From Candidatus Colwellbacteria bacterium (GTDB taxonomy: Bacteria > Patescibacteriota > Minisyncoccia > UBA6257 > Colwellbacteraceae): a stretch of 64,000 bases of DNA. The notes beneath the pieces were generated by a model that was not told the DNA's origin, searched no databases, and saw only the letters and a list, made by a program, of their open reading frames with translations. Positions 4,739-53,629 of the stretch are shown in pieces; within the stretch, counting starts at the first letter, position 1, and every line of letters begins with the position of its first letter. The stretch covers positions 2,492-66,491 of the forward strand of contig JAUYKE010000021.1 in the NCBI GenBank assembly GCA_030700125.1, in the 5' to 3' direction. The translations under genes and the position numbers were made by a program.

Positions 4739-5944
4739 TTATTCAACCGCCACCGGAGGCTCTCCAATTGACGTGGCCTGCCCCGGCGGCGTCTTCGAGG
4801 TAAGTTTAAGAATAATCCTTTTTTCATCGGGCTTAACGGAGTCAATCAGAAACTCGTAGGATTTGCCCGGCTCGAGATTTTTCTTTAATTCCTCCACCGA
4901 GCCAAACTCGGAGACATGAATCAGTCCCATAATATCCTGGTCAAGCTTAATAAAAGCGCCGAAAGGATTAAGTTTGTGAACGATTCCATGCACCGTCACT
5001 CCTTCCTTGAAACGTTCACTCACTTTCTCCCAGGGGTTTGGTTGGAGAGTTTTGATTGAAAGGGATACTCGGCCGTCTTTGATCTCAATAATTTTGGCTT
5101 GAACCATATCGCCGATTGCCACTACTTCCTTAGGGTGGTCAATTATATTATGGCTTAGTTCAGAGATGTGAATCAGTCCTTCGATTTCGGGATTGTCGGC
5201 AAAACGGGCAAAAGCGCCGAAATTAGCCACCCCGGAGATAATCCCCGAAACAACTTGCCCTACCGAATACTGGACTAAGAGTTCCTTCACATTCTCGGTT
5301 ACCACTTCTCTCTCGGAAACTATTAATTTATTGTTTCGCGGATTGACGTTAATGATCTTTACCGTGAGTTCGGTGCCGATGAACTGATTCAGGGTCTCTA
5401 GTATCTTCTGGCGATTGCCGTCGGCGTTTTGAGGATAATGCTCGTTGGAGAGTTGAGAGGCCGGTAAAAAGGCCTGAAGACCGGCAATGGCGGAAATCAA
5501 CCCGCCGGTATTAGCCGCCGTAATCTGAACTTTAATCGGTTCTCCCTGATCCTTTAGTTCTTTGACTTCCTGCCAAGCCTTCTGTTTGCCTGCTTCGGTC
5601 AAAGATAATTCTACAAACCCCTCGTCGTTTTCCGGGGCAAGCACCTTAGCGGTTACGACCTCGCCGATCTCAAGTTTTTTTAGAATTCCTTTGGCATTTA
5701 AAAATTCCACTCCATAGACAATACCGGTTCCGATTTTGGGAATTTCAAAATAGGCCGCCCGGCCGCCCCTCTCCATTAGGGAAACATCAACAAGATCGCC
5801 TTCCTTAAGAAGAATCATGAGCGAGGGGTTCGCTTTGAGCATTTGCAGTTCTAGATGATTACCGTTCTTTTGCATTGCTTGGAGATTATAGAGAAATGGA
5901 TTTGTGTCTGCAAGTTTCAGAAGCTTGTCGAAAGCCCCAATCAT
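4739..5944 (-). CDS. S1 RNA-binding domain protein (ribosomal protein S1-like, ~4 S1 repeats)
   Basis: Repeated S1-domain signatures (G.V.G.V..F.L......GLIH.SE). Confidence 0.75.
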   Translation of the reverse strand: MIGAFDKLLKLADTNPFLYNLQAMQKNGNHLELQMLKANPSLMILLKEGDLVDVSLMERGGRAAYFEIPKIGTGIVYGVEFLNAKGILKKLEIGEVVTAKVLAPENDEGFVELSLTEAGKQKAWQEVKELKDQGEPIKVQITAANTGGLISAIAGLQAFLPASQLSNEHYPQNADGNRQKILETLNQFIGTELTVKIINVNPRNNKLIVSEREVVTENVKELLVQYSVGQVVSGIISGVANFGAFARFADNPEIEGLIHISELSHNIIDHPKEVVAIGDMVQAKIIEIKDGRVSLSIKTLQPNPWEKVSERFKEGVTVHGIVHKLNPFGAFIKLDQDIMGLIHVSEFGSVEELKKNLEPGKSYEFLIDSVKPDEKRIILKLTSKTPPGQATSIGEPPVAVE

Positions 5945-5961
5945 CCGGTAAAATTAATTGG

Positions 5962-6531
5962 ATGATAGTGAGCTTATCGTCTCCTGGCTGTAAGTGCCAA
6001 GTGGGAGACTTTGTTATGTTTGTTGACCCCGCCTCCGACAGGAAGGCCGATTTAATTTTGAAAACCAAAACTGACTTGCCGATCGGCTTCCCTCTTTCGC
6101 CGGAAGTTGTCGCCGGATCCGGTGAATATGAGATCGGAGGAGTGAGAGTGAAGGGTATGAGTTTAGAGAACGAAGCTAACGGCCAAACCATAAGGACGAT
6201 TTATGCGGTTCTACTTGAAGGAGTCAAGCTCGCCTTTCTGGGGGAGCTCCAAGACGAACCTGACGAAGAATCCTTAGGTAAATTGGGGAAAGCTGATATT
6301 CTATTTCTCTCGGCTGACTCAGGTAAGCTAAAAGCCAAACAACTCACCTCCCTCATTAAGCAAATTGATCCCAAAATTATCATTCCGATTAGCGATAAAA
6401 CAGCGAAATTGCTGGCTGAAGAGTTGGGGCAGAAGGTCAAAGCGGAAGAAAAATTAGTTATCAAGAAGAAGGATTTAGATAAAGAGCAAATTGTAAGTAA
6501 ATTAGTATGGCTAAAGAGCGGGACGAAATAA
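5962..6531 (+). CDS. hypothetical protein (weak resemblance to MBL-fold hydrolase segment, lacks HxHxDH)
   Basis: ORF; start moved to internal Met to avoid overlap with S1 gene; 3' end overlaps gyrA start by 25 nt. Confidence 0.4.
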
Positions 6532-8942
6532 ACAGAGGAGGCAAAATTGAGCCGAGAGAAATTACCGCGGAGTTGCGCGAGTCCTATTTGGATTATGCGA
6601 TGTCGGTTATCGTCGGTCGCGCCTTGCCCGACGTTCGAGACGGCCTAAAACCGGTTCACCGCCGGATTTTATGGGCAATGCAGGAGCTGGGATTAACTGC
6701 CGGCAGCAAATTTATGAAGTCCGCAAGAGTGGTTGGTGAAACTATGGGTAAATTCCATCCGCACGGGGATGCGGCGGTCTACGACGCCTTGGTAAGAATG
6801 GCCCAGCCGTTCTCATTACGTTATCCGCTTATTACCGGACAAGGAAATTTTGGGAGTGTTGATGGGGATGGAGCTGCGGCACAAAGGTATACCGAGGTAA
6901 AATTATCTCCAATCGCCGAAGAGCTTTTAACCGATATTGATAAAGATACCGTTGATTTCGCCCCTAACTACGACGACTCTCGCAAAGAGCCGGTAGTAAT
7001 GCCGGCCAAATTCCCCAATCTCTTAGTGAACGGTTCCGAGGGAATTGCCGTAGGAATGGCGACTAAAATTCCGCCCCACAACCTAAGCGAGGTAATTAAC
7101 GCCAGCATCCACTTGATTGATAGTCCGAAAGCTACCGCCGAGGAGCTAATGGGGTTTGTCCAAGGACCGGACTTTCCCACCGGCGGGATAATTTACGACC
7201 GGAAGGCAATTGTCGAGGCCTACATTTCCGGCCGGGGTAGTGTCACATGCCGAGCTACGGTTGAGGTTGAAGAGAAAAGAATCGTTATTAGCGAAATTCC
7301 TTACCAGGTTAACAAATCCGAACTTATCATACGGATGGCCGAGCTTGTCCAGGAGAAGCGAATTGAAGGGATTAGGGATCTTCGAGATGAATCCGATAAA
7401 GATGGATTGCGAATTACGATTGATCTGAAGTCCGATTCCGTCCCGGAAAAAGTATTAAACCAGCTCTGGCGGCATACCGACCTCCAGAAGGACTACCATC
7501 TAAACATGGTGGCCCTAGCTGAAGGGCTCCAACCCCAGACAATGTCCATTCGGGACGTTCTCTTGGGTTTTGTTCTACACCGCAAGGAAGTCGTCACTCG
7601 CCGAACCAAGTTTGAACTAAAGCGAGCCGAAGAGCGGGCCCATATTTTAGAGGGACTAGCCAAGGCCTTATCTCAAATTGATAAAGTGATTGCCGCCATT
7701 AAAAAATCGGCTGATAGAGCCGAGGCCCACACGAATTTAATAAAGCAGTTTGATTTAAGTGACCGCCAGGCAACGGCCATATTAGAAATGCGGCTCCAAA
7801 CCTTGGCGGCTCTCGAGCGGCAAAAGATTGCGGATGAGTTAAAAGAGAAACTCCAATTAATTAAGGACTTGAAGCTTCTTTTGAAGAGTCCGGAAAAAAT
7901 TCTGGGAATCATCAAAAGAGAATTGAAAGAACTTGATAGCCGTTTTGGCGACGAGCGCCGCACCAAATTGAAGGTCGGCGCGTTGAAAGAGTTGGCGGAT
8001 GAAGACATGATTCCTCAAGAAGAGGCGATTATCACGCAGACCCACGACGGCTACATTAAGCGTCTGCCCCCCGGAACTTTCAAGCATCAGCGGCGAGGAG
8101 GCAAAGGCGTGAAAGGTGGAATCACCAATGAAGCTGATGTTTTGACGCACTTCATCGGCGCCCATACCCACGATGATATTCTCTTCTTTACCGACAAAGG
8201 ACGTGTTTTTCAAACAAAAGTCTACGAAATCCCGTCCGCTTCGCGCGTGAGCAAAGGTCAGATGATTCATAATTTCTTGGGTATTCCAGCCAACGAAAAG
8301 GTTAGCGCTATTGTAGCTTACGGCAGCGAAGAGAAGAAAAACAACCCTTATTTAGTGATTGTCACCGCCGGCGGAGTAATAAAGAAAACCGGGCTTGATA
8401 AATTTGAGAATGTCCGGCGAAGCGGCATCCTCGCCGTGAACCTTAGTAAAGGAGATGAACTGAAGTGGGCCAAGCTCGCCGGGCCCAAGGACGAGATTGT
8501 GATGACTACCGCGGCAGGCCGGGCAATCAGATTTAAGGGAGGGGACGTAAGAGCTATGGGGAGGACGGCCGGAGGTGTCAGGGGCATCACTTTGAAAAAA
8601 GACGACAGAGTCAGTTCCTTTGACTTGGTGGCACCGATGAAAGCTGCGAGGTTCCTCACGGTGATGGTAAATGGATACGCTAAGCAAACCCCGCTTAAGG
8701 AATACAAGCTTCAGCGGCGCGGCGGTCAGGGGATTTTAACCGCCAAAGTGACCAGCAAAACCGGTCAAGTAGTTTCAGCTCATGTTATAATTGAACAGAC
8801 TGAACTGTTAGCGCTTTCAGCCAAGGGATTGGTGTTGCGCACAAGCATTAAAAGTATTAGATCTGCCGGCCGAGCCACCCAAGGAGTGCGTATCATGAAG
8901 CTCGGCGCCGGCGATAAAATTATCGGAACAGTTTGTCTTTAG
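6507..8942 (+). CDS. gyrA: DNA gyrase subunit A
   Basis: N-terminus ...[33 protein letters not shown] near-identical to canonical GyrA; 811 aa with C-terminal beta-pinwheel repeats. Confidence 0.95.
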
Positions 8943-8999: not shown

Positions 9000-10283
9000 A
9001 TGTCTTTTACTCGTCAGCAACTTATCTTCCTCGGCGTTGTCGGCGCCATTGTTTTAATATTTCTCATCATCTTTTTTGCTGGAGGCAGGAGATCATCAAC
9101 TGAGAGAGTAGAACTCACTGTTTGGGGAATAGATGACAAAGTAGCTTGGCGTGACACTATTTTTCAGTACCGAAGGCTCCACTCAAACGTCAGAATAGAA
9201 TATACCCAGATTGACCCGGAAAATTATGAGAAGGAACTTGTAAATGCCCTGGCTGCGGATCGAGGTCCGGACATTTTTATGTTTAACAGTCGCTGGCTTT
9301 ATAAGCACGGCGATAAAATTGCCGCTTTTCCCTCGGAGACGATGAGTCTTAGCGCCTTTAGTGAACTCTTCCCGAAAGTGGCGGAACAGGACTTTCTTTA
9401 TAATGGGCAAATTTATGCCCTGCCTCTTTCAGTCGATACCCTGGCTCTTGTTTACAACCGGGATATTTTTGATGGGCGAGGCGTGGCTCTATCGCCGAAG
9501 ACCTGGGAAGAATTCCAATCTCTTGTTCCCCGCTTGAGAACTATTAATAAACAAGGAAGCTTGACGCTTGCCGCTGCTTCAATCGGCGGCCCTTCAGAGA
9601 ATATACCGAATGCTGCTGATATTTTATCCCTTTTAATGTTCCAGGCAGGTGCCACTCAAACGGATGAAGAGCTTGGCACGACCAGGATTAATCCTAACAC
9701 GAAGGAGGGCGAAAACGCTCTTAGCTTTTATGCTCAATTCGCCAGTCCAACCAGTACTTACTATGCTTGGAGTAATTCTTTTGAATCCTCTACCGAATCT
9801 TTTGCCGAGGGTAAAACAGCAATGGTTTTCGTTTATGCCTACCAACTCCCCCGGATTAAGGAAAAAAATCCTTTTCTGGATTACGCTATTGCGCCAGCAC
9901 CGCAAATCAATCCCGATAACCCAATAAACATTGCCAACTATTGGGGATTGGCAGTTTCTACGAAAAGCTTAAGCCAAAACGTGGCCTGGGATTTTGTGAC
10001 GTTTGCTGCAACCGACAAGGATAATGCGGCCAATTATCTCAAGACTACCTCCCGCCCGCCGGCTTTGAGATCCCTAATCAATGATCATCTAAGTGATAAA
10101 GATCTTGGCGTTTTTGCCAGTCAGGCGTTAACCGCCAGAACTTGGTTTCAGGTTGATGATATAGCTTTTCAAAGGATTCTTAACGGGGCGATAAAAAGAG
10201 CGCTGGGAGGAGCCCCTCTCTATCAAGTTTTAAGGCAGGTCGATGCCGAAATAATCCAACTGGAAAGAGAGTTAACAAGATGA
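9000..10283 (+). CDS. extracellular solute-binding protein (ABC transporter family-1 SBP), N-terminal membrane anchor
   Basis: 427 aa; signal-anchor then typical sugar-type SBP pattern (LTVWG...DIFMFNSRWL...); no permease/ATPase adjacent. Confidence 0.7.
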   Translation: MSFTRQQLIFLGVVGAIVLIFLIIFFAGGRRSSTERVELTVWGIDDKVAWRDTIFQYRRLHSNVRIEYTQIDPENYEKELVNALAADRGPDIFMFNSRWLYKHGDKIAAFPSETMSLSAFSELFPKVAEQDFLYNGQIYALPLSVDTLALVYNRDIFDGRGVALSPKTWEEFQSLVPRLRTINKQGSLTLAAASIGGPSENIPNAADILSLLMFQAGATQTDEELGTTRINPNTKEGENALSFYAQFASPTSTYYAWSNSFESSTESFAEGKTAMVFVYAYQLPRIKEKNPFLDYAIAPAPQINPDNPINIANYWGLAVSTKSLSQNVAWDFVTFAATDKDNAANYLKTTSRPPALRSLINDHLSDKDLGVFASQALTARTWFQVDDIAFQRILNGAIKRALGGAPLYQVLRQVDAEIIQLERELTR

Positions 10284-10654
10284 CGGATTTCCTAAGCTTT
10301 ATAGGGGTAAAAATAGCGCTGGCGCAAGGGCTTGTCCCCAATTGCTCTCCGACTGAATGCGGGGAAGAGCAGCTTCTTCAATTAGGCGTAAATGTCATCA
10401 ATTTTATGATTCAGTTTCTCGCTTTCCCCCTCGTCGTTGTCTTTTTCCTTTGGGGCGGCTTTCTTCTTCTCACCTCCGGCGGTTCGCCTAACCGGGTAGA
10501 GCAGGGTAAAAAAGCGATCACTGGTGCTATTATCGGATTGGTGATTGTTCTCACTTCGGTGGTAGTGATTAACACCCTTCTTGGTACCTTTACTAGCTGC
10601 GAAGTCAAATTGAGCCAAATCGGTAAAGTTAATTGTCCAGGTATCACAGATTAG
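10280..10654 (+). CDS. small two-TM protein, T4SS-pilin-like (TrbC/VirB2-type 'pilin' fold candidate), paralog 1
   Basis: 124 aa; hydrophobic helix - WGGFLLLTSGGSPNRVEQGKKAITGAIIGLVIVL - second helix; ATGA start overlap with SBP gene. Confidence 0.5.
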   Translation: MTDFLSFIGVKIALAQGLVPNCSPTECGEEQLLQLGVNVINFMIQFLAFPLVVVFFLWGGFLLLTSGGSPNRVEQGKKAITGAIIGLVIVLTSVVVINTLLGTFTSCEVKLSQIGKVNCPGITD

Positions 10655-10701
10655 CAATTTGTTATTATGAAATTAAGCCTCCACCGCCATAAGAGATAAA
10701 A

Positions 10702-11112
10702 ATGAAACATTCTATCCAGTCACTTTTCATTATTCTCCTAGCTTTGTTCGCATTCGGATTTCTAAATCCGGCTCTTAGTCCTGCCCAGGCTCAAGTAGGC
10801 GGCGGGAATCCTAACGGATTAGTTATCGAAAATCCCCTCAACTTCGGCACCATCCCAGAGATCCTTAATGCCGTTGCGGGATTTCTCTACGTAACTGCCC
10901 TTGCCGTAGTAACCGTTATGGTTCTTTGGGGAGGTTTCCAGATTCTTACTGCCGCCGGCAGTCCGGAAAGGATTGATAAAGGCAAGAAGACGCTTTTATA
11001 TGCTGTCATCGGGACAGTAGTTATCATCATCGCTGGCGGGATGGCCGATCTTACCGCTAATATTCTCGGAGGGGGAACCCAGCCGGGTCCTCCTGCTGGC
11101 TCACTACCATAG
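10702..11112 (+). CDS. small secreted two-TM protein, T4SS-pilin-like, paralog 2
   Basis: Signal peptide (…LNPALSPAQA/QV), then LWGGFQILTAAGSPERIDKGKKTLLYAVIGTVVIII motif shared with neighbours. Confidence 0.5.
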   Translation: MKHSIQSLFIILLALFAFGFLNPALSPAQAQVGGGNPNGLVIENPLNFGTIPEILNAVAGFLYVTALAVVTVMVLWGGFQILTAAGSPERIDKGKKTLLYAVIGTVVIIIAGGMADLTANILGGGTQPGPPAGSLP

Positions 11113-11182
11113 CCGTTCGCTCTCCACAAGGACTTTATGCTATCATTAGGGAAACCCAAAAGGTCGGAAGCTAAGATCGTGT

Positions 11183-11542
11183 TTGATGAGCAAGTTCAAC
11201 TTACAGAAACTGACAACGAAAATTAACTCCGCCTACGTTGGTGCTGTCCTTGTCCAACCAGCAAGAGCACTAGGAGAACCAACAGCACCCATTAAGACTG
11301 CTCAAGGGGTTGTAGACGCAATTAACCAAGTAGCCAATTTCTTATTTGCAGTCTTCCTTGCTTTGGCCGTTATCTTCTTGATTGTAGCGGCACTTTTTTA
11401 TCTGACTGCAGCAGGCAATCAGACCCAGCTTGATAAGGCAAAGAATACTTTAATTTATTCCATCGTCGCCATTGTAATCGCCTTGATTGCGGGCGGATTA
11501 ACAGCCTTTATCGGCGATATTTTAGGAACAAGAGCCTTGTAA
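11183..11542 (+). CDS. small two-TM protein, T4SS-pilin-like, paralog 3
   Basis: LFYLTAAGNQTQLDKAKNTLIYSIVAIVIALIAGG motif shared with the two upstream genes. Confidence 0.5.
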   Translation: MMSKFNLQKLTTKINSAYVGAVLVQPARALGEPTAPIKTAQGVVDAINQVANFLFAVFLALAVIFLIVAALFYLTAAGNQTQLDKAKNTLIYSIVAIVIALIAGGLTAFIGDILGTRAL

Positions 11543-11561
11543 TTATACTTGGATACTAGGA

Positions 11562-11602
11562 GGCCCCGGACACGCTTGTACGCGCCGGGGCCTTTCGTTT
11601 TT
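11562..11602. terminator. rho-independent terminator (GGCCCCGG...CCGGGGCC + TTTCGTTTTT), bidirectional between pilin-like operon and convergent GC-rich gene
   Basis: Hairpin plus T-run seen directly. Confidence 0.7.
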
Positions 11603-11624
11603 CATCACCTCCTTTCTAGCTGGT

Positions 11625-12536
11625 CTAGCTGGTCGTGACGGTGGCATCCTCCGCCCCTTGATTGTTGCGAAGACGGAAGATGCCGCGCTTGGTGCCAACG
11701 TACTGCGGCGCTCCCTGCTTGAAGACAAGCGCCGTCCCGTCCCAGAACTCGATTCCGGCCGTCGACCCAAGGGGGTCGAGGTCAACCCGATAGCTCGACC
11801 CTGGCGGGGTTGTGACCCATCCGGTCCAACACCCGCTCTGGAGCTGAACTGTGATCTGCGTCACTCCCTCGCCGAAGTTGTAGGAATCAGGCTCGCCGGG
11901 ACAGACATTGACGTCTATCCCTTTGACCTCCGCCGGCGCCGCCTTCGCGTTCTCGGTTTGCCAGTTCTGGTACCACGGCTCCTTGGAAAAGAAGTGGAGC
12001 GTGAGACCTACGAGAACGATGACGGGAAGCCAGAAAAAGATGATTCTCCAGCCCTTTGATAGACCCAAAGAGAAGAGCATGAGTGCAGCCAGGATCGGGA
12101 TCCCAAGGACAAGTCCCCTGTTGTTCTCGACCGGGACGAAGAAGAAGTACGCCCCGATGGCGATCTCCGTGAGGAGGATGATCCTCAATCCTCGCAATCC
12201 GCTCGCGATGAGGTTCCGGATATCGCCCAGCTTATTGACTGTCGCGATGCCGCCACCGACCACCAGCCCTCCAGCCAGGTAATCCTGGTAGCGAGGTTGG
12301 GTGATCGCCCAGATCACCCAACCGAGGGCGGCAAAGGCTGCGAAGATCACGAGCCCGGTAAGCGCGTGAATCCCCGTCAGGGCCGCCAATGTGAGGGCAA
12401 TTGGTAGCCCGACGATGACCACCGCCGTGTAGCGGATCGCCAGCCGGGCCCATCTGCCACCATGTTCCCATCCGAGCCGGAGGAAGCTAATGGCGTTCCG
12501 AAGCTCTTCGAATAGCCACTGTCCTATAGTTCTCAT
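11625..12536 (-). CDS. hypothetical polytopic membrane protein with Cys-containing C-terminal extracytoplasmic domain (GC-rich island)
   Basis: 303 aa, ~6 TM helices; GC-rich codon usage distinct from flanking genes. Confidence 0.5.
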   Translation of the reverse strand: MRTIGQWLFEELRNAISFLRLGWEHGGRWARLAIRYTAVVIVGLPIALTLAALTGIHALTGLVIFAAFAALGWVIWAITQPRYQDYLAGGLVVGGGIATVNKLGDIRNLIASGLRGLRIILLTEIAIGAYFFFVPVENNRGLVLGIPILAALMLFSLGLSKGWRIIFFWLPVIVLVGLTLHFFSKEPWYQNWQTENAKAAPAEVKGIDVNVCPGEPDSYNFGEGVTQITVQLQSGCWTGWVTTPPGSSYRVDLDPLGSTAGIEFWDGTALVFKQGAPQYVGTKRGIFRLRNNQGAEDATVTTS

Positions 12537-13213
12537 CGCATCCTCCTTTCTCGGAGCTCAGTGAGTCGCCGCTCCCGTTCCTCACGGGATTCCTGGAGTC
12601 GCTGTGCCGACTCGGTAGCCTTCGCGTCGAGTTTCCGAAGCAGCCCAGACTTCCGCTTGGTACCATGGAGTCGCTTTTTCGCACCGTTCTTGAGTCCTTG
12701 CCAGTCGGTCGGCCGACGAGGAGACTTCGGCGGTTTCATGGAATCGCTTAGCTCTTTAAGGAACCTTCGCGTTTCCATGCTCTCCTGCCACTCAGCCTTG
12801 AGCCGCTCGCGCTCAGCATCCTTGTCAGCCGCATTGCGGAGTCGCTCCGCCGCATCTTTGACAAACCGCTCCCCCTCCGTTTTCATGTAGTTCTCATAGA
12901 GGACGGTCCCCGGATCCTTCTTCTTCCGGAAATAGACAGTGCCGAAAATATCGCTAGCATCGCTAGCTATTGCCTCGACACTTGTACCTAGCCATCCTCC
13001 CCGAACTTCGGCTTTCTTCTCAGCCTCGTTGATAACGACAGTGAAAACACGTTCAGCTAGTCCCCCCCGCGACCAGTGGTCGTCCGGGTAACGAGCGGCA
13101 AGCCATTCTGCTCCCCGCTCGATATTCATTCTCATCTCTGGACGTACGGCACTGATGAACCCTCGTAGCGCTCTCGCGCCACCATCCTTTTTGTTTTCTT
13201 TCTCGTCTGGCAT
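12533..13213 (-). CDS. hypothetical protein with highly charged K/R/E-rich C-terminal coiled-coil tail (GC-rich island)
   Basis: 226 aa; 4-nt overlap (ATGA) with downstream membrane-protein gene implies operon. Confidence 0.5.
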   Translation of the reverse strand: MPDEKENKKDGGARALRGFISAVRPEMRMNIERGAEWLAARYPDDHWSRGGLAERVFTVVINEAEKKAEVRGGWLGTSVEAIASDASDIFGTVYFRKKKDPGTVLYENYMKTEGERFVKDAAERLRNAADKDAERERLKAEWQESMETRRFLKELSDSMKPPKSPRRPTDWQGLKNGAKKRLHGTKRKSGLLRKLDAKATESAQRLQESREERERRLTELRERRMR

Positions 13214-13226
13214 CTTAGTTCCCTTT

Positions 13227-13595
13227 CTACTCCGATTCCTCTTCGTCTGATTCTACAGCGGCATTTTCCATCTGGATTTCCACCAGACTGTCTATCTCCC
13301 AGCGAATCTCAGGACAGACATTGCCGCAGACCATGCAGACACCCAGCGTCACAAGCGATCCTTCAGGATCAATTGTGAATTCGGGCATCCAGAGAACAGA
13401 GTGGGTCCCTCGCTCCTCGCACTTAGCGCAAAGAGTTGAGAGAATTGTCCATTCGGGACGAGCCATCTCCCTCTCCTTTCGTCCGTCGTAAGTATTACAG
13501 AGGTGATATTGTTGATTGTTTTTAAAGACCCCCTGCCCATTGCTGGACAGCCTCTCGAGCACAAGGCTCAAGACACCCATTTCTACCATATCCAA
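13227..13595 (-). CDS. hypothetical Cys-rich protein (CxxC…CxxC zinc-ribbon-like) with acidic C-terminus (GC-rich island)
   Basis: 122 aa; CAKCEERG … CMVCGNVC motifs. Confidence 0.45.
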   Translation of the reverse strand: MDMVEMGVLSLVLERLSSNGQGVFKNNQQYHLCNTYDGRKEREMARPEWTILSTLCAKCEERGTHSVLWMPEFTIDPEGSLVTLGVCMVCGNVCPEIRWEIDSLVEIQMENAAVESDEEESE

Positions 13596-13601
13596 ACTTA
13601 T

Positions 13602-13631
13602 TTGTCAATGATTTAAAATTTGATGTATAAT
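13602..13631 (+). promoter_or_regulatory. sigma-70-like promoter (TTGTCA-18nt-TATAAT) driving leader + tRNA-Leu
   Basis: Consensus hexamers seen directly upstream of structured leader. Confidence 0.5.
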
Positions 13632-13653
13632 ATCGACACTGGGCAGGTGGCGA

Positions 13654-13708
13654 AATGGTATACCCCAGTAGTAGTCCGCCGGAGGCGGACACTACGGGGC
13701 AGGCGCGC
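13654..13708 (+). ncRNA. conserved structured leader element, copy A (AAUGGUAUA-CCCC(A)GUAG-UAG-hairpin-CA-CUACGGGG-CAGGCGCGC), directly 5' of tRNA-Leu
   Basis: Closing helix CCCC-A-GUAG/CUACGGGG plus inner hairpin UCCGCC-GGA-GGCGGA; two related copies elsewhere in window. Confidence 0.45.
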
Positions 13709-13712
13709 AATT

Positions 13713-13794
13713 GCCCCCGTGGCGGAACTGGTAGACGCGCATGGTTTAGGACCATGTCTCGAAAGAGGTAGGGGTTCAAATCCTCTCGGGGGCA
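13713..13794 (+). tRNA. tRNA-Leu (anticodon TAG), long variable arm, no encoded CCA
   Basis: GCCCCCG-TG-GCGGAACTGGTAGACGC-...CATGG-TTTAGGA-CCATG-variable arm-GGGGTTCAAATCCTC-TCGGGGGC-A. Confidence 0.85.
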
Positions 13795-13816
13795 CAAAAA
13801 TTTTATCAAAAAGAAA

Positions 13817-13849
13817 ACCCCACCAGTCCGGGACGGACTGGCGGGGCGC
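13817..13849 (-). terminator. hairpin (CCAGTCCG-GGA-CGGACTGG, extended) followed on the minus strand by T-runs; terminator for the metallophosphoesterase gene
   Basis: Seen directly. Confidence 0.5.
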
Positions 13850-15219
13850 TAGAAGTGACAAGAACTTTCACGGAGCTCACCCGGCCCGTCAAAGAGCATG
13901 AGGCAGGCCGAGGCGAATGTCTTTGTCTTCGCCTCGAATTCAACGAGGGCAAATCCGTAAAGCTGCTCTACCGCGTGAACGAAACCGCCGGCACCGCTCG
14001 TTCCCGGTGAGACAGAAATCACCGTACCGGATCTTTCAAAGAACTGACGGTGATCATGCCCCGAGACAAAAACGAGCGGCAACTCGATTTCCTCCGCGTA
14101 GCGTGCCGCACATTCACCGACCTCGGGATTGTGGACGAGGATAATCAGTGCATCTGTTTTCGCAAACTCCCTCTCGAGCTTGCGGCAGATTTCCGAAAAC
14201 GACATTTCTGCCAGTTTCGGATCCCGGTCGTCAATGCCTCCAAGCGGATCGCTCTCGCCGATGATTCTTATGCCGCGAATTTCGGTAAGAGCGCCGTTCT
14301 CGAGCAGGCGGATGTTGGACGCCTCCTTCACTCTCTGGATAGCCGCTTCGTCCTCGTGATTTCCGGCGACAAGGATGTAGGGTATCCCATTGTCGCTACT
14401 CCGGACGAAGAAATCGGCTTCCATTGCTGTTCCTCGATCGGTGAAGTCACCGGCATCGAGAACAGCATCTACCTTGAAGCTCTTCGCTAACTCGCGCGCC
14501 ATCGCCATCCCCAGCGGGTTATTGTGGAGGTCTGAAACGAGCAGGAACTTGACGGTTGGAGGTGTTGGCACCTCTGCCCCGGTTGTTACCTGTTCGTGGA
14601 GACGCACAAGCCCGGCGATCACTTCGTTGAAGGTAAGCTGCGCCTTATCCCAGTCTTCTTGGATTTCCGTCACTAGCCGGAAAATCCGCGGGGCATCTTG
14701 AATCGGCCCCCTATAGGACGGGTTGCGAAGCGATTGAGGGTTAAAGGTGAGGGCGGCTACAGTTCCGAGGATTGTCACAACGACAAAAGTCGAAACGATA
14801 GAGAGGGCGGCTCCGATAATCCGCCTCCGTGGCGGACCATTAATGGCGACTACTCCGAAGAGGCCGCCAAAGAGCAGAAGCCAGAGCAACTTAGCCCAGA
14901 TTAGCTTCCACGTCAGACCGCCGAAATCCTCCGGTTGGGGCAGAGTCTCGGCGCTATCTCCGACAACAAACACCGCCTCGACGTTCAAGGGGCCATAGTG
15001 GGTTCCCCAGGATAGCTCACCGAGCGGACCGAGACCGAGCTTGAGCTCGCCTCCGGGGATGGCTGGTGCCAGCCGTAATGAGAGCTTGCCCGTTTCAAGA
15101 TGAAACACCGTCGGGCTTACGAGCTCCACGCTGACGAAAACCAAAAAAGCCACCAGCACGATTCGAATGATTGCCGATTTCACATTCACCTCCTTCCTGT
15201 CAAAGGGCTTAATTACCAT
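13849..15219 (-). CDS. membrane-anchored calcineurin-like metallophosphoesterase (GC-rich island)
   Basis: N-terminal TM segments then LLVSDLHNN, GDFTDRG, VAGNHED, GHDHRQ metallophosphoesterase motifs. Confidence 0.75.
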   Translation of the reverse strand: MVIKPFDRKEVNVKSAIIRIVLVAFLVFVSVELVSPTVFHLETGKLSLRLAPAIPGGELKLGLGPLGELSWGTHYGPLNVEAVFVVGDSAETLPQPEDFGGLTWKLIWAKLLWLLLFGGLFGVVAINGPPRRRIIGAALSIVSTFVVVTILGTVAALTFNPQSLRNPSYRGPIQDAPRIFRLVTEIQEDWDKAQLTFNEVIAGLVRLHEQVTTGAEVPTPPTVKFLLVSDLHNNPLGMAMARELAKSFKVDAVLDAGDFTDRGTAMEADFFVRSSDNGIPYILVAGNHEDEAAIQRVKEASNIRLLENGALTEIRGIRIIGESDPLGGIDDRDPKLAEMSFSEICRKLEREFAKTDALIILVHNPEVGECAARYAEEIELPLVFVSGHDHRQFFERSGTVISVSPGTSGAGGFVHAVEQLYGFALVEFEAKTKTFASACLMLFDGPGELRESSCHF

Positions 15220-30646: not shown

Positions 30647-31903
30647 ATGGCTTTTCGCGACCCGATTTTAGAGAATTTAATAAAAAAGGAAATTAAGCGG
30701 CAAAGGGAGACCTTGGCTTTAATCCCTTCTGAAAATTTCGCTCCCCTAGAAACGCTGAAAATTTTAGGTACTCCTCTATCCAATAAATACTCCGAAGGGT
30801 ATCCCGGAAAGCGCTATTATCCCGGTAATTTTTATTACGATAAAATTGAAACTCTTGCCCAGAAGCGAGCTTTAAAAGTTTTTGGTTTAGATCCAAGAAA
30901 ATGGCACGTGAATGTTCAGCCCTATTCCGGTTCGCCGGGAAACCTCGCAGTTTATTTTGCCTTGGCAGAACCGGGCGAAACGATTATGGGGATGAAGCTT
31001 GCCGATGGCGGACACCTCACTCACGGGCATAAAGTTTCGGCTACCGGAAAATTTTGGAAGAGTGTTCAGTTTGGCATCAATCCTAAAACGGGATTGATTA
31101 ACTACGCTGAGGTGGCAAAGCTGGCAAGGAAACATAGGCCCAAAGTTATTGTTTCAGGATTTACCGCTTATCCCAGAAAAGTTAATTTCAAAAAATTCGG
31201 CGAGATTGCAAAGAGTGTCGGGGCATATCACCTAACCGATATCTCTCACATTGCGGGGCTCATAGCCGGCGGAGTGCATCCTGCGCCTTTTCCCCACGCC
31301 GACGTGGTAATGACTACCACTCACAAATCACTCCGAGGACCCAGGGGAGCTATTCTTTTTATTAATCGGGCGTCCCCCGTCGCAAAGAAAAACAAAGTTG
31401 ACCTCCCGGCTTTAATTGACAGGGCAGTTTTCCCGGGTCTCCAAGGCGGGCCACATAATAACACCACCGCCGCCATGGCAATGGCCTTTTTGGAAGCCAG
31501 TCAGCCCTCTTTTAAGGCTTATGCCAGGCAAATCGCTAAAAACGCAAAAGCCCTCGCGGCAGAGCTTAAGCAACTGGGCTTTAATCTGGTAAGCGGAGGA
31601 ACAGACAGCCATCTTATTCTCATGGATGTGAGAAACTTTGGCCTTGACGGCATGGAGGCGGAAAAACAACTAGAGAAAGCAGGTATTATTGCTAACAGAA
31701 ATTCGGTTCCCGGAGATCCTTCACCTTTTAAACCCTCCGGCATAAGAATGGGAACGCCGGCTCTCACTTCGCGCGGGATGAAAGAAAAAGAAATGGTTGA
31801 AGTGGCACGACTCATCCATCAAGCGCTCCACAAAAAGGCGGGAGCAAAAGCAGCTGTCTTAAAGCTCTGTCGTAAATTCCCGGCCAGAAGATTTTTAGGA
31901 TAA
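30647..31903 (+). CDS. glyA: serine hydroxymethyltransferase
   Basis: …LIPSENF…SNKYSEGYPGKRYY…TTTHKSLRGPRG (PLP-Lys region). Confidence 0.95.
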   Translation: MAFRDPILENLIKKEIKRQRETLALIPSENFAPLETLKILGTPLSNKYSEGYPGKRYYPGNFYYDKIETLAQKRALKVFGLDPRKWHVNVQPYSGSPGNLAVYFALAEPGETIMGMKLADGGHLTHGHKVSATGKFWKSVQFGINPKTGLINYAEVAKLARKHRPKVIVSGFTAYPRKVNFKKFGEIAKSVGAYHLTDISHIAGLIAGGVHPAPFPHADVVMTTTHKSLRGPRGAILFINRASPVAKKNKVDLPALIDRAVFPGLQGGPHNNTTAAMAMAFLEASQPSFKAYARQIAKNAKALAAELKQLGFNLVSGGTDSHLILMDVRNFGLDGMEAEKQLEKAGIIANRNSVPGDPSPFKPSGIRMGTPALTSRGMKEKEMVEVARLIHQALHKKAGAKAAVLKLCRKFPARRFLG

Positions 31904-32265
31904 TGCCAAAAGAAAAGAGGTTAGCTAAAGGCTTTGGAGCTGCCCTCGACGGCTTTAGAGAAACTATCCTCTACGAAAAAAGCTTTAAGGTGATGCTAGT
32001 TATCGCTGCCGTTGTTGTCGCAGCTATGTTCTATTTTCCCACCGGCCCTCTTGAAAAAGTAGTGCTTCTCGCTGCGATCTTTGCTGTTTTGGTGCTTGAG
32101 CTTTTGAACTCTGTCGTTGAACGAGTAATGGATTTTTTGTCGCCGGAATACAATGAGCAGGCAAGAATAGTAAAGGACTTAATGGCCGCCATCGTGTTTT
32201 CGGCTTCCGTCGGCGCCGTTATTATTGGATTAATGATTTTCGTCCCTTATATACTAAGTTGGTGA
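31903..32265 (+). CDS. dgkA: diacylglycerol kinase family protein (DgkA/undecaprenol kinase-like)
   Basis: 120 aa, 3 TM, ELLNSVVE motif. Confidence 0.7.
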   Translation: MPKEKRLAKGFGAALDGFRETILYEKSFKVMLVIAAVVVAAMFYFPTGPLEKVVLLAAIFAVLVLELLNSVVERVMDFLSPEYNEQARIVKDLMAAIVFSASVGAVIIGLMIFVPYILSW

Positions 32266-33074
32266 AAATAGACGGTCATTCTATCTCGAAAGAGATAATC
32301 GAACATCTTAAAAAATTACCAAAACCGGAAAAGATTTTTGCGGCCATTCTTGTCGGTGATGATCCCCGTTCAGCCAGTTTTCTAAAACAAAAGGAACGGG
32401 TGGCTAAAGAGCTGGGAGTTGATTTCCGGCTCTATAATCTACGGGCTGAACTTGGCAATGACGGTTTGCGGCAGGAGGTAAGGCGGCTCGTGGGAAAAAA
32501 CCCGGTCGGCGGAACCGTTTTCCAGCTGCCTCTTCCGCAAGGACTCAATCCCCACTATGTTTTGAATGCCATTCCGCGCAAGAAGGACGTTGATGTCTTG
32601 ACCGAGCGAGCACTAGGCGCCCTTTACAATGGCCGAAATCCGGTTTTTCCTCCGGCAGTCGCGACTGTAAAAACTATTTTAGAAAAAGTTAATTTTGACT
32701 TAGAGAAAGCAGAAGTAGCAGTAGTCGGGCTGGGTAATTTGGTAGGTAAGCCGGTTAGTGTCTGGCTCACAAGAAAGTGTAAAAACCTCTTTTTATTGAG
32801 GAGGGGCAGCGATTTGGAATTGCTTAAGCGGGCGGATCTTATTATTACTGGAGTCGGCCAGGCAGGACTCATTAAATCAGATATGCTAAAATCCGGCGCA
32901 GGCGTTATCGACTTCGGATATTATTATTCTCCCGATGGCGAAGTGTCCGGCGATTTTTCGGCGGAAGATGGGGGAAAACTAAGTTTTTACACCCCCACGC
33001 CGGGAGGCACAGGCCCGATTTTAGTAGCCGAGCTGTTTCGTAATTTTTATATTTTGAATAGTCAAGAAAGATGA
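32259..33074 (+). CDS. folD: bifunctional methylenetetrahydrofolate dehydrogenase/cyclohydrolase
   Basis: AAILVGDDPRSASFLKQKERVAKELG…VVGLGNLVGKPVSVWL… typical FolD. Confidence 0.8.
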   Translation: MVKIDGHSISKEIIEHLKKLPKPEKIFAAILVGDDPRSASFLKQKERVAKELGVDFRLYNLRAELGNDGLRQEVRRLVGKNPVGGTVFQLPLPQGLNPHYVLNAIPRKKDVDVLTERALGALYNGRNPVFPPAVATVKTILEKVNFDLEKAEVAVVGLGNLVGKPVSVWLTRKCKNLFLLRRGSDLELLKRADLIITGVGQAGLIKSDMLKSGAGVIDFGYYYSPDGEVSGDFSAEDGGKLSFYTPTPGGTGPILVAELFRNFYILNSQER

Positions 33075-33946
33075 GAAAAACCTTAGTTATTTTTACTTTG
33101 GCTGCGGTGGCAGGACTCCTAATCGGCGGGATATTATTCTGGCAAAGAGTCTATTTTTTTAACGGCAAAATCGGAATAAGCCAGGATTTGGCTCTACTAG
33201 TTCTGGGACAAGTTTCTCCCGGAGAAGGAGGCCAGTGGCACAATGCTCCCGAGCTGGCTGATTCCATTGTCCTTGTTTACTACAACGCCGACACAAAAAC
33301 GGTAAACCTTATTTCTTTACCCCGCGACCTCTACGGCACTTTCGGCGGCGAGAGTTTTAAATTAAACGAAGTTGCTAAACGTAAAAAAGTTGATGATCTT
33401 CTCGTCAAGATGCCCGAAATAACCGGAGTGGAAACGGAAAAATATGTCATCGTTAACTTGGGAATCGTGGAGAAAGTAGTTGATAACTTGGGCGGGGTGG
33501 ATGTTGTCCTTGAAGCTCCGGTTACTGATCCGGTAAGCGGCTTTACCCTTAAAAAGGGCTTAAATCATTTAAACGGTAACCAGGCGGCTTTCCTCGTTAG
33601 AAATAGATTCGCGCCGGAAGGAGATTTCTTCCGGGAAAGACACCAGCACCTTTTGATAAAAGCTATTTTTGACAAACTAAGCGAGCAAGGTTCCGCCGAC
33701 CGCACAAAATTTTTCTTCCAGATTTTGCCGGAAGTCGCTAGATCCCAATCAAACTTTAGTGTTGGAGAGCTTATTCCCCAGTTAGGTAATATTAATGTAG
33801 AGAAATTTAATAGCATCACCCTGGATTTCCAAACCGGTGTTCTTGTGAGTTCCCAAGACCCAATCGGCGCCTACATCCTAATCCCCAAAGAAGGAATCGA
33901 TAACTACGCCGGCGTAAGAAAATTTATTGAGAGCAAGCTGAAGTAG
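33071..33946 (+). CDS. LytR-CpsA-Psr (LCP) family protein
   Basis: N-terminal TM then LCP core (…ADSIVLVYYNADTKTVNLISLPRDLY…). Confidence 0.75.
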   Translation: MRKTLVIFTLAAVAGLLIGGILFWQRVYFFNGKIGISQDLALLVLGQVSPGEGGQWHNAPELADSIVLVYYNADTKTVNLISLPRDLYGTFGGESFKLNEVAKRKKVDDLLVKMPEITGVETEKYVIVNLGIVEKVVDNLGGVDVVLEAPVTDPVSGFTLKKGLNHLNGNQAAFLVRNRFAPEGDFFRERHQHLLIKAIFDKLSEQGSADRTKFFFQILPEVARSQSNFSVGELIPQLGNINVEKFNSITLDFQTGVLVSSQDPIGAYILIPKEGIDNYAGVRKFIESKLK

Positions 33947-53485: not shown

Positions 53486-53629
53486 GACACGAAAACAGGG
53501 TTTTTGGGAGTGTCCCATTTTGCAACCTGAGTAGTTGCCAGGCGGTTGACTAATGGCATTAAATATGCCATTCTTTGGTGTCCTTTAATAGCGTATTCTC
53601 TCCACCGAAAGCGAAAGGAGGTGGTCGAC

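What the first reader, a model, noticed from the sequence alone, without database searches (positions are those of the whole stretch)
9000..11542. Orphan solute-binding protein co-operonic with three paralogous T4SS-pilin-like two-TM proteins
An ABC-type family-1 SBP (no permease or ATPase nearby) overlaps by ATGA the first of three tandem small genes (124, 136 and 119 aa). The three products share a conserved core between two hydrophobic helices: WGGF(L/Q)(L/I)LT(S/A)(A/G)GSP(N/E)R(V/I)(E/D)(Q/K)GKK…(I/V)IG(L/T)V(I/V). The second has a clear signal peptide. This resembles TrbC/VirB2-type T4SS pilins, a family I recall as abundant in CPR and Gram-positive genomes. However, no VirB4, VirD4 or other T4SS genes are present in the window. 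The operon ends in a clean bidirectional terminator right at the edge of a GC-rich island. The set may be a surface-filament or adhesion module, or a variable surface-protein set, rather than a conjugation system.
Basis: partly seen in the sequence, partly recalled or inferred. Interest (0 to 1): 0.6.

Follow-up and report, generated by a model that had tools for sequence, protein, structure and literature searches.

The report
Sugar-binding protein with three pilin-like partners
In an ultra-small Patescibacteria (candidate phyla radiation, CPR) bacterium, a membrane-anchored sugar-binding protein is encoded in one operon with three distinct VirB2-type "pilin" proteins; the four-gene unit recurs in all 69 related species with enough downstream sequence to judge, which points to an undescribed cell-surface complex rather than a stray transporter part.

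Summary
Window 9000-11542 encodes a MalE-like family-1 solute-binding protein (SBP) with an uncleaved N-terminal membrane anchor. Three paralogous two-helix proteins follow, and the first overlaps the SBP stop by ATGA. All three pass Pfam's own threshold for PF18895 (T4SS_pilin). The 64-kb window holds no VirB4, VirB6, ABC permease or ABC ATPase.

The organism is a Candidatus Colwellbacteria (Patescibacteria, class Paceibacteria). The arrangement gyrA-SBP-pilinA-pilinB-pilinC is conserved:
- All 70 loci with enough downstream sequence (the window plus 69 related species) have pilin-like genes directly after the SBP, and 59 have three or more.
- The three pilins are fixed orthologous groups in a fixed order (119 of 123 best cross-species hits keep their position). 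They are not a variable antigen set.
- B and C occur as natural fusions.

VirB2-like pilin arrays in Patescibacteria are already published, mostly next to virB4. I found no report of the link to an SBP or of the fixed triad.

My best reading is a hetero-oligomeric envelope complex that presents a glycan-binding receptor, probably assembled by a T4SS encoded elsewhere. This mechanism is inferred, not shown.

Verdict: new variant of a known kind, moderate interest.

The parts
6507..8942 (+). gyrA (811 aa), the conserved upstream neighbour and probably the head of the same transcription unit
   Evidence: The translation is GyrA-like (assigned by reading, not put through Pfam). An orthologous ~814-aa gene lies directly upstream on the same strand in 67 of 79 loci. 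It is separated from the SBP by 57 nt, and no terminator-like site was found between them.
9000..10283 (+). Membrane-anchored family-1 (MalE-like) solute-binding protein, 427 aa
   Evidence: PF01547 8e-29 and PF13416 7e-26. The nearest solved structures are sugar SBPs (4qrz, 9e-14). One N-terminal TM at residues 8-26. The anchor motif M-x-[FL]-[TS]-[RK]-x-Q ... (I/L)PG(L/R)(R/K) recurs, with variation, in most of the 80 orthologues and has no Gly at -1. At least 900 homologues, and every source-given organism name among the 120 listed is Patescibacteria.
10280..10654 (+). Pilin-like protein A (124 aa), the Cys-bearing first subunit
   Evidence: PF18895, 40.6 bits against a cutoff of 26.6. ATGA overlap with the SBP stop. 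TM helices at 46-64 and 79-97. The position-1 orthologous group has conserved Cys before TM1 (GLVPxC..C) and after TM2 (W....C).
10702..11112 (+). Pilin-like protein B (136 aa), with a clear signal peptide
   Evidence: PF18895, 42.3 bits; TrbC, 24.4 bits, below the 27.9 cutoff. AF2 model: helices 3-21 (signal peptide), 51-82 and 88-121, with hairpin pLDDT 86-89. Belongs to the position-2 orthologous group.
11183..11542 (+). Pilin-like protein C (119 aa from TTG, or 118 aa from the ATG at 11186)
   Evidence: PF18895, 34.2 bits. The position-3 orthologous group is the most uniform (median 115 aa; motif AAF.YLTA.GD.EK...AK). Natural B-C fusions exist.
11559..11602 (+). Intrinsic terminator closing the operon: hairpin 11559-11595, then UUUCGUUUUU
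   Evidence: RNA fold -26.7 kcal/mol, z = -3.57, 0 of 200 shuffles fold as well. There is no U tract on the - strand.

Best explanation
Window 9000-11542 is a chromosomal operon conserved across the Colwell-, Wolfe- and Liptonbacteria part of class Paceibacteria (Patescibacteria/CPR). It encodes four envelope proteins that most likely work as one hetero-oligomeric complex.

Shown here:
- The SBP is a complete MalE-type carbohydrate-binding protein. An uncleaved N-terminal helix with conserved flanking motifs holds it close to the membrane.
- A, B and C are three non-redundant VirB2/TrbC-like (PF18895) subunits.
- The gene order is fixed.
- SBP and A are tightly or translationally coupled.
- B and C occur as natural fusions.

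Inferred from sequence: each subunit is exported by Sec and inserts as a two-helix hairpin, with N and C termini outside and the basic GSP.R...GKK loop inside.

Inferred mechanism: the three pilin-like subunits form a membrane-embedded base or short VirB2-type fibre. Their outward-facing termini are display sites, and relatives carry Cys-rich or beta/gamma-crystallin domains there. The SBP sits in or beside this assembly and supplies glycan recognition, either for contact with a host cell surface or for capturing sugars. Assembly probably uses the VirB4-type T4SS encoded elsewhere in the genome. The unit is not a conjugation system, and it is not a set of interchangeable antigenic variants.
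For: Family assignments:
- All three pilin-like proteins pass the PF18895 threshold, and the SBP is family 1.
- The SBP's nearest solved relatives are sugar-binding proteins.
- Many aromatic residues are invariant across 23 SBP orthologues (W42, Y68, Y76, W99, W169, Y255, W257, Y279, Y314).

Linkage:
- All 70 distinct loci with more than 1.5 kb downstream (the window plus 69 species, SBP 39-50% identical) have pilin-like genes directly after the SBP. 64 have two or more and 59 have three or more (corrected as described in the report).
- The first pilin gene overlaps the SBP stop in 20 of 78 loci and starts within 30 nt in 44 more.
- In the reverse direction, 18 of 26 metagenome loci found through a C-type pilin motif have the SBP upstream.

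Non-redundancy of the subunits:
- In three-gene loci the best cross-species hit keeps its position in 119 of 123 cases.
- Each group has its own motifs.
- B-C fusions occur (L075, L039, P0140, P0147).

Display role:
- Relatives carry Cys-rich and Gly-rich N-terminal domains, beta/gamma-crystallin domains or about 150-aa C-terminal domains on the outward-facing ends.

T4SS elsewhere:
- VirB4 is present in 7 of the 8 operon-carrying genomes listed in Table S1 of PMC12102498.

No transporter partners nearby:
- Among 1281 predicted genes in the 80 loci plus the window, none has an EAA-motif permease signature and only one looks like an ABC ATPase.
Against: - There is no direct evidence that the SBP touches the pilins. 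Adjacency could reflect co-expression only.
- The anchor-to-domain linker is short (about 10 residues). This keeps the SBP at the membrane and argues against a role at the tip of a long pilus.
- The TrbC model (PF04956) is below threshold for all three proteins.
- Two other Paceibacteria have their own single PF18895 pilin next to virB4. The T4SS may therefore not need this triad.
- A few metagenome loci have the triad with no SBP within 1.6 kb or more upstream.
- Polypeptides with up to 8 fused pilin modules exist. These fit a static membrane assembly better than an extruded pilus.
- ABC permease and ATPase genes elsewhere in the genome cannot be excluded from a 64-kb window.
Confidence: 0.45

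Rival explanations
1. There are two unrelated functions that merely share a housekeeping transcription unit. A, B and C are pilins for the T4SS encoded elsewhere. The SBP is an ordinary ABC-importer binding protein whose permease and ATPase genes lie elsewhere in the genome.
For: SBP genes are sometimes encoded apart from their transporters (general knowledge). VirB4 is present in 7 of 8 listed operon-carrying genomes. The unit sits behind gyrA in 67 of 79 loci, which would suit any constitutively needed gene. The SBP keeps a full, conserved two-lobe sequence.
Against: The adjacency has survived divergence to 39-50% SBP identity in all 69 related species with enough downstream sequence, in very small genomes. 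The stop and start overlap or lie within 30 nt in 64 of 78 loci. The SBP's membrane anchor has conserved flanking motifs, which a passive tether does not need. No importer permease was detected near any of the 80 loci.
Confidence: 0.27
2. This is a T4SS-independent membrane machine. The three two-helix proteins (six TM helices in all) form a small hetero-oligomeric channel or platform in the cell's own membrane, and the SBP docks onto it. It would be either a new kind of binding-protein-dependent uptake conduit or a bacterial counterpart of the archaeal bindosome, built from VirB2-like instead of type IV pilin-like proteins.
For: Fixed 1:1:1 gene order and B-C fusions. Polypeptides with 2-8 covalently joined pilin modules would be hard to thread into a helical pilus. 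The SBP linker is short. In many loci SPFH/Band_7 scaffold genes and their small TM partners lie next to the arrays, and in L079 they lie inside the array. At least some Paceibacteria have a separate pilin at virB4. Precedent: Sulfolobus sugar-binding proteins depend on three small pilin-like proteins, BasABC (PMC3047682).
Against: No energy-coupling component is linked to the operon. No known transporter is built from VirB2-like hairpins. The helices are 32-34 residues long, as in pilins, which is longer than a simple TM span. The bindosome's defining class III signal peptides are absent.
Confidence: 0.17
3. The three pilins are a variable surface-antigen or host-range set: interchangeable paralogues that diversify by duplication, as proposed for other patescibacterial and Bartonella/Anaplasma VirB2 arrays.
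For: The paralogues are only 30-36% identical, similar to the published arrays (mean 25%; PMC12102498). The copy number ranges from 1 to 6 among species. Variable Cys-rich extensions occur in close relatives.
Against: Position-specific orthology holds in 119 of 123 cases, and first, middle and last identities are kept in longer arrays as well. This means three old, separately conserved genes rather than recent turnover.
Confidence: 0.04

Closest known systems
VirB2-like pilin arrays of Patescibacteria (Quinonero-Coronel et al. 2025, PMC12102498; essential pilin series in the Southlakia epibionticum T4SS cluster, Wang et al. 2023, PMC10633639)
   Same: Same Pfam family (PF18895). Tandem arrays of divergent paralogues in CPR chromosomes. 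No relaxase, so a non-conjugative role is suspected.
   Different: The published arrays are described relative to virB4 and are reported as most abundant in Microgenomatia and Saccharimonadia. This array lies behind gyrA and an SBP, with no T4SS gene recognised within 10 kb in 80 species. It is a fixed triad of orthologous groups. Neither paper mentions an SBP: there were 0 text hits for solute-binding or substrate-binding in either, and 0 hits in the held supplement text of PMC12102498.
TrbC/VirB2 conjugative pilins (PF04956; T-pilus, F-like TraA)
   Same: Small size, signal peptide, two long hydrophobic helices joined by a short basic loop, and both termini outside.
   Different: Scores are below the PF04956 threshold. 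There is no profile hit to any solved pilin. The genes are not next to virB3/virB4. There are three obligatory paralogues rather than one major pilin. An SBP is co-encoded.
Sulfolobus bindosome / Bas system (Zolghadr et al. 2011, PMC3047682)
   Same: Sugar-binding proteins whose surface deployment is tied to three small pilin-like proteins (BasABC). This is the only known precedent for 'SBP plus three pilin-like proteins'.
   Different: Bas proteins and their SBPs carry class III (type IV prepilin) signal peptides and need the BasE ATPase and the BasF membrane protein. Here the SBP has a plain signal anchor with no Gly at -1, the small proteins are of the T4SS (VirB2) type, and no assembly ATPase is linked. 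The resemblance is by analogy only.
MalE-type binding proteins of carbohydrate ABC importers
   Same: Family-1 fold signature and conserved aromatic residues. It is membrane-tethered, as in monoderm bacteria and archaea.
   Different: No permease or ATPase genes in the 64-kb window or near any of the 80 orthologues. It is translationally coupled to a pilin-like gene instead.

Membership tests
Pfam PF18895 T4SS_pilin | HMM score at or above the gathering threshold (26.6 bits) | tested here: met
   A 40.6, B 42.3 and C 34.2 bits. The public gene calls carry the same annotation.
TrbC/VirB2 pilin (PF04956) | HMM score at or above the gathering threshold (27.9 bits) | tested here: not met
   A 14.6, B 24.4 and C 21.7 bits. 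Several close homologues of B do carry a precomputed PF04956 hit.
TrbC/VirB2 pilin (PF04956) | Signal peptide followed by a two-helix hydrophobic hairpin with a short basic connecting loop | tested here: met
   Hydropathy scan. AF2 model of B with helices 51-82 and 88-121 at pLDDT 86-89. The loops are GSPNRVEQGKK, GSPERIDKGKK and GNQTQLDKAKN.
TrbC/VirB2 pilin (PF04956) | Encoded inside a T4SS cluster next to virB3/virB4 | tested here: not met
   No VirB4, VirB3 or VirB6 in the 64-kb window. None appears among the recurrent neighbours within 10 kb in 80 species.
TrbC/VirB2 pilin (PF04956) | Structural or sequence relationship to solved conjugative pilins | tested here: inconclusive
TrbC/VirB2 pilin (PF04956) | Polymerises into an extracellular pilus in a VirB4-dependent way | not testable with these tools
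   Needs microscopy or biochemistry.
Patescibacterial VirB2-like pilin array (PMC12102498) | Two or more PF18895/PF04956 genes in tandem, or separated by one non-pilin gene | tested here: met
   Three in tandem.
Patescibacterial VirB2-like pilin array (PMC12102498) | Located within 20 CDS of virB4 | tested here: not met
   About 9 CDS upstream and more than 50 downstream lie in the window, and none is virB4.
ABC importer family-1 solute-binding protein | SBP_bac_1 / SBP_bac_8 domain | tested here: met
   PF01547 at 102 bits and PF13416 at 92 bits.
ABC importer family-1 solute-binding protein | Works with cognate permeases (EAA loop) and an ABC ATPase, usually in the same operon | tested here: not met
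   None in the window. None with an EAA motif among 1281 genes of the 80 loci plus window. Genome-wide absence could not be tested.
Bindosome (Bas) system | Class III (prepilin-type) signal peptides on the SBP and the small proteins | tested here: not met
   In the 80 orthologue N-termini the common M-x-[FL]-[TS]-[RK]-x-Q start has no Gly at -1. The small proteins have AxA-type Sec signal peptides.
Bindosome (Bas) system | Linked assembly ATPase and membrane protein (BasE/BasF) | tested here: not met
   No ATPase gene in or next to the operon.

The most novel reading that the evidence does not exclude
The SBP and the three VirB2-like proteins form a self-contained machine that does not need the T4SS. 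It would be a bacterial 'bindosome', or a binding-protein-gated conduit made of pilin-type hairpins. Through it these metabolically minimal episymbionts would recognise and take up host-derived sugars. This would be a new use of the VirB2 fold and a new class of SBP partner.
Probability: 0.17. Interest if true: 0.8.

Novelty: new variant of a known kind. Interest (0 to 1): 0.55.

Why it matters
Patescibacteria make up a large share of uncultured bacteria and live attached to other cells, yet how they recognise hosts and acquire nutrients is mostly unknown. VirB2-like pilins are essential in the one species tested genetically, but their role is unclear because relaxases and coupling proteins are missing. 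A conserved operon that ties three specific pilin-like subunits to a sugar-binding protein gives a concrete, testable handle. The SBP ectodomain can be expressed and screened for ligands. The four proteins can be modelled and co-purified. The operon's presence can be compared with VirB4 and with ABC permeases across complete genomes. The result also argues against reading every patescibacterial pilin array as antigenic variation.

Tried and rejected
- A profile of 89 pilins against PDB sequences gave no hit at E <= 10.
- I tested whether the SBP N-terminus (FTRxQ + hydrophobic + PG) is a type IV prepilin/class III signal, as in the bindosome. I rejected this: the common M-x-[FL]-[TS]-[RK]-x-Q start has no Gly at -1 among the 80 orthologues, and the motif sits at the very N-terminus.
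- I guessed that the C-terminal domain on some A-type pilins (VTGGTE..H..D..HWD) is an M15-like peptidoglycan peptidase. It has no Pfam, NCBIfam or PDB sequence support, so the guess is dropped.
- I suspected that window 30647-33946 was a second SBP plus permeases. It is SHMT, diacylglycerol kinase, FolD and LytR.
- I asked whether L023 has a second SBP ahead of its extra pilin array. It does not; that gene is a Band_7 protein.
I replaced it with a degenerate DNA pattern.
- I tried to read the T4SS component list (Table S3 of PMC12102498) for operon-carrying genomes. The stored file is cut before they appear.
- Literature searches for 'T4SS pilin' plus CPR, for SBP plus pilin plus Patescibacteria, and for Parcubacteria SBP plus permease found nothing.
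- Rfam over the whole window found only tRNAs.
Full report
**What is in the sequence.**
- the SBP at 9000-10283 (427 aa);
- pilin-like A at 10280-10654 (124 aa);
- pilin-like B at 10702-11112 (136 aa);
- pilin-like C at 11183-11542 (119 aa from a TTG; a public gene call uses the ATG at 11186).

The start of A overlaps the SBP stop as ATGA. The operon ends in a strong hairpin at 11559-11595 (-26.7 kcal/mol, z = -3.6), followed by UUUCGUUUUU on the + strand. On the - strand the same hairpin has no U tract, so it is not clearly bidirectional. GC content rises from 0.459 over the operon to 0.564 over the next 3.6 kb.

**Family assignments.**
The SBP matches PF01547 (8e-29) and PF13416 (7e-26). Its nearest solved relatives are sugar-binding proteins such as 4qrz (9e-14) and the MalE group. 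It has one N-terminal TM helix and no lipobox or AxA cleavage site, so it is a signal-anchored protein.

All three small proteins pass Pfam's gathering score for PF18895 T4SS_pilin (40.6, 42.3 and 34.2 bits against 26.6). Their hits to TrbC/VirB2 (PF04956) and to NCBIfam's Mbov_0395 pilin-like family are below threshold.

They are true paralogues: A-B 35% identity at 4e-14, B-C 36% at 2e-15, A-C 30% at 5e-6.

**Is the SBP orphan, and is a T4SS nearby?**
The ten largest ORFs of the window are FtsH, PNPase, FtsK, ClpB, a P-type ATPase, a helicase with HNH repeats, RNase Y, IF-2, a MurA-like enzyme and NusA. A scan of every ORF found Walker A motifs only in FtsH, FtsK, RecA, ClpB and IF-2. The multi-TM proteins are a PrsW protease, a CAAX protease, DUF5656 and others. 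None is an ABC permease or VirB6. I did not put every ORF through Pfam.

**Organism and conservation.**
The SBP is 100% identical to an NCBI protein from a Candidatus Colwellbacteria MAG. A published table places that group in GTDB class Paceibacteria.

A scan of one genome per species found 428 SBP relatives, and I fetched the best 80 loci (SBP 39-50% identical). They come from Colwell-, Wolfe- and Liptonbacteria, from 'Parcubacteria', and from some evidently mislabelled MAGs.

I built an HMM from the three window pilins and iterated it on six-frame ORFs of these loci. It found 259 pilin-like ORFs, almost all directly downstream of the SBP on the same strand. I corrected for three things: L001 is a duplicate of the window, the SBP of L066 is split into two ORFs, and L054 has an ORF-start artefact. 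After that, all 70 distinct loci with more than 1.5 kb downstream (the window plus 69 species) have at least one pilin gene after the SBP. 64 have two or more, and 59 have three or more.

The first pilin gene overlaps the SBP stop in 20 of 78 loci and starts within 30 nt in another 44. gyrA is the immediate upstream gene on the same strand in 67 of 79 loci. It is itself preceded by an MBL-fold gene in 64 loci. I did not recognise VirB4 or an ABC permease or ATPase among the recurrent neighbour clusters within 10 kb. A motif scan of all 1281 predicted genes found no EAA-loop permease.

For the reverse direction I searched metagenome contigs with a DNA pattern for the C-type motif AAFxYLTAAGDxEK. 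All 79 matches lay inside pilin-like ORFs. Of the 26 with at least 2.6 kb upstream, 18 had the SBP upstream. Most of the remaining 8 are longer arrays interrupted by a small anchored protein, and they run off the contig. A few (L082, L112, L102) truly lack the SBP within 1.6 kb or more. The link is strong but not absolute.

**Three subunits, not three variants.**
In loci with three pilin genes, the best cross-species BLAST hit of each gene occupies the same position in 119 of 123 cases. The window's A, B and C each score highest against their own position.

Each group has its own signature:
- A has conserved cysteines before TM1 (GLVPxC..C) and after TM2 (W....C). By the positive-inside rule both sit on the outer face, which would allow disulfides between the two ends.
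- B has an NPL motif and the G.PE....GKK loop.
- C has AAF.YLTA.GD.EK...AK.

B and C occur as single fused polypeptides in the order B-C (L075, L039, P0140, P0147). This is classic evidence that two proteins act side by side. These facts speak against the 'variable surface-protein set' reading and against the antigenic-variation interpretation suggested for other arrays.

**What the wider family shows.**
An exhaustive profile search found 42,958 representative proteins at E <= 1e-3 and 3,203 at E <= 1e-10. Some carry 2-8 pilin modules in one chain, for example P0137 (820 aa, eight modules, no internal stops). Others carry extra outward-facing domains:
- Cys-rich domains on Gly-rich linkers in close relatives of B;
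- beta/gamma-crystallin domains;
- a ~150-aa C-terminal domain of unknown family on some A-type proteins.

The termini therefore behave as display sites.

**Literature.**
Quinonero-Coronel et al. 2025 (PMC12102498) used PF18895 and PF04956 to find VirB2-like pilins in 1,948 VirB4-positive Patescibacteria assemblies. The pilins lay near virB4 in 1,135 of them. The authors found 441 arrays of 2-11 genes, mostly in Microgenomatia and Saccharimonadia, and suggested host-range versatility. Wang et al. 2023 (PMC10633639) found an essential pilin series inside the T4SS cluster of Southlakia.

Neither paper mentions a solute-binding protein. Full-text searches combining SBP, pilin and Patescibacteria returned nothing.

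Their Table S1 lists VirB4 as present in 7 of the 8 operon-carrying genomes that I could match. A T4SS therefore usually exists elsewhere in these genomes. The readable part of Table S3 shows two other Paceibacteria with a single PF18895 pilin right beside virB4, TrsD and VirB3. This hints that the T4SS locus may have its own pilin. I could not see the entries for genomes that carry this operon.

**Mechanism.**
Shown here:
- family membership;
- predicted topology (from hydropathy and an AF2 model, not experiment);
- tight coupling of the SBP and A genes;
- fixed orthologous groups in fixed order;
- B-C fusions;
- lineage-wide conservation.

Inferred:
- The four proteins form one envelope complex.
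- A, B and C build a VirB2-type base or short fibre.
- The membrane-proximal SBP supplies glycan recognition for host contact or sugar capture.
- Assembly is probably by the distant T4SS.

I put this at 0.45. The rivals:
- Co-location without physical interaction, 0.27. The SBP would serve a distant ABC importer and the pilins a distant T4SS.
- A T4SS-independent machine, 0.17. This would be bindosome-like or a binding-protein-gated conduit. It is favoured by the multi-module polypeptides, the short SBP linker and the recurrent SPFH/Band_7 neighbours. It is weakened by the lack of any energy source.
- A variable antigen set, 0.04, largely refuted.

The Sulfolobus bindosome (sugar-binding proteins plus three small pilin-like proteins, BasABC; PMC3047682) is the nearest functional precedent, but by analogy only. 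Its class III signal peptides and its BasEF assembly proteins are absent here.

**Verdict.**
The pilin-like assignment is supported. The 'variable set' idea is not. The finding is a new variant of a known kind: a published pilin family and array type, in a previously unreported, conserved partnership with a sugar-binding protein and away from the T4SS. Interest is moderate (0.55). It is a clean, testable lead into host recognition or nutrient capture in CPR bacteria, but the function remains inferred.

Noticed in passing
window 11543-15219: GC-rich stretch (0.53-0.58 against about 0.46) right after the terminator. It holds tRNA-Leu(tag) at 13713-13795, three - strand ORFs with no Pfam family (303, 226 and 122 aa) and a 3-TM metallophosphoesterase (13849-15219). 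The GC jump of +0.105 is the largest among 44 comparable loci (mean +0.012). The phosphoesterase has a homologue only in L016. The C-terminal ~100 aa of the 303-aa ORF match the small TM proteins found at this position in 14 other loci, so the region is only partly foreign.
   Followed up: partly
L079 11827-13177; L023 13867-15629; convergent downstream genes in about 34 loci: SPFH/Band_7 genes, each with a small TM partner protein, recur next to the pilin arrays. In L079 the pair sits inside the array on the same strand (SBP - pilin A - Band_7 - 155 aa - five pilins). In L023 the pair heads a second, five-gene pilin array. This may be a membrane scaffold for the pilin-like proteins.
   Followed up: partly
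P0137 (820 aa), P0138, P0139, P0256 (933 aa): Single polypeptides with 6-8 tandem PF18895 pilin modules (up to 16 predicted TM helices) and no internal stops. These are hard to reconcile with subunits of an extruded helical pilus unless they are cleaved.
   Followed up: partly
L021 11051-11917, L042 10048-10938, L080 7720-8736, L070 460-1281, L053 1998-2804: Pilin-like proteins, mostly the first (A-type) of their array, with a ~150-aa extracellular C-terminal domain sharing VTGGTE...H..G..D(I/F)...HWD(V/I). There is no Pfam, NCBIfam or PDB sequence match. Others (L022, L026, L029, L034, L048) have long Cys-rich extensions. Some family members carry beta/gamma-crystallin domains (P0175, P0176, P0193).
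   Followed up: partly
L136 632-1267, L121 493-1116, L137 7906-8442, L048 10797-11303, L053 2801-3319: A ~170-210-aa N-terminally anchored protein (motif VNNFY...) is inserted within longer pilin arrays of some lineages. It is absent from the window and was not checked against Pfam.
   Followed up: no
window 5875-6531: An MBL-fold (PF13483) gene overlaps the gyrA start by 25 nt. It is the conserved partner upstream of gyrA in 64 related loci, often with a ~104-aa TM protein between them that the window lacks.
   Followed up: partly
window 53546-56017: An 823-aa protein combining a ResIII/Helicase_C helicase with six copies of the 'homing endonuclease associated repeat' (PF18780, 4e-80), in a locally GC-richer stretch (0.52-0.54).
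   Followed up: no
window 58734-60251: One ORF joins an N-terminal HTH_3 domain (residues 17-65) to a full EPSP_synthase/MurA-type domain (77-491). It is either a real fusion or two in-frame genes merged by my ORF calling.
   Followed up: no
L066 5155-6474: The SBP orthologue is split into two adjacent ORFs (a frameshift, a pseudogene or an assembly error), yet the three pilin genes still follow it.
   Followed up: no
L019, L068 and many 'uncultured Candidatus Saccharibacteria' TPA MAG loci: Contigs carrying this Paceibacteria-type gyrA-SBP-pilin locus are labelled Gammaproteobacteria, Spirochaetia or Saccharibacteria in their records. This probably reflects binning contamination or generic labels.
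   Followed up: no
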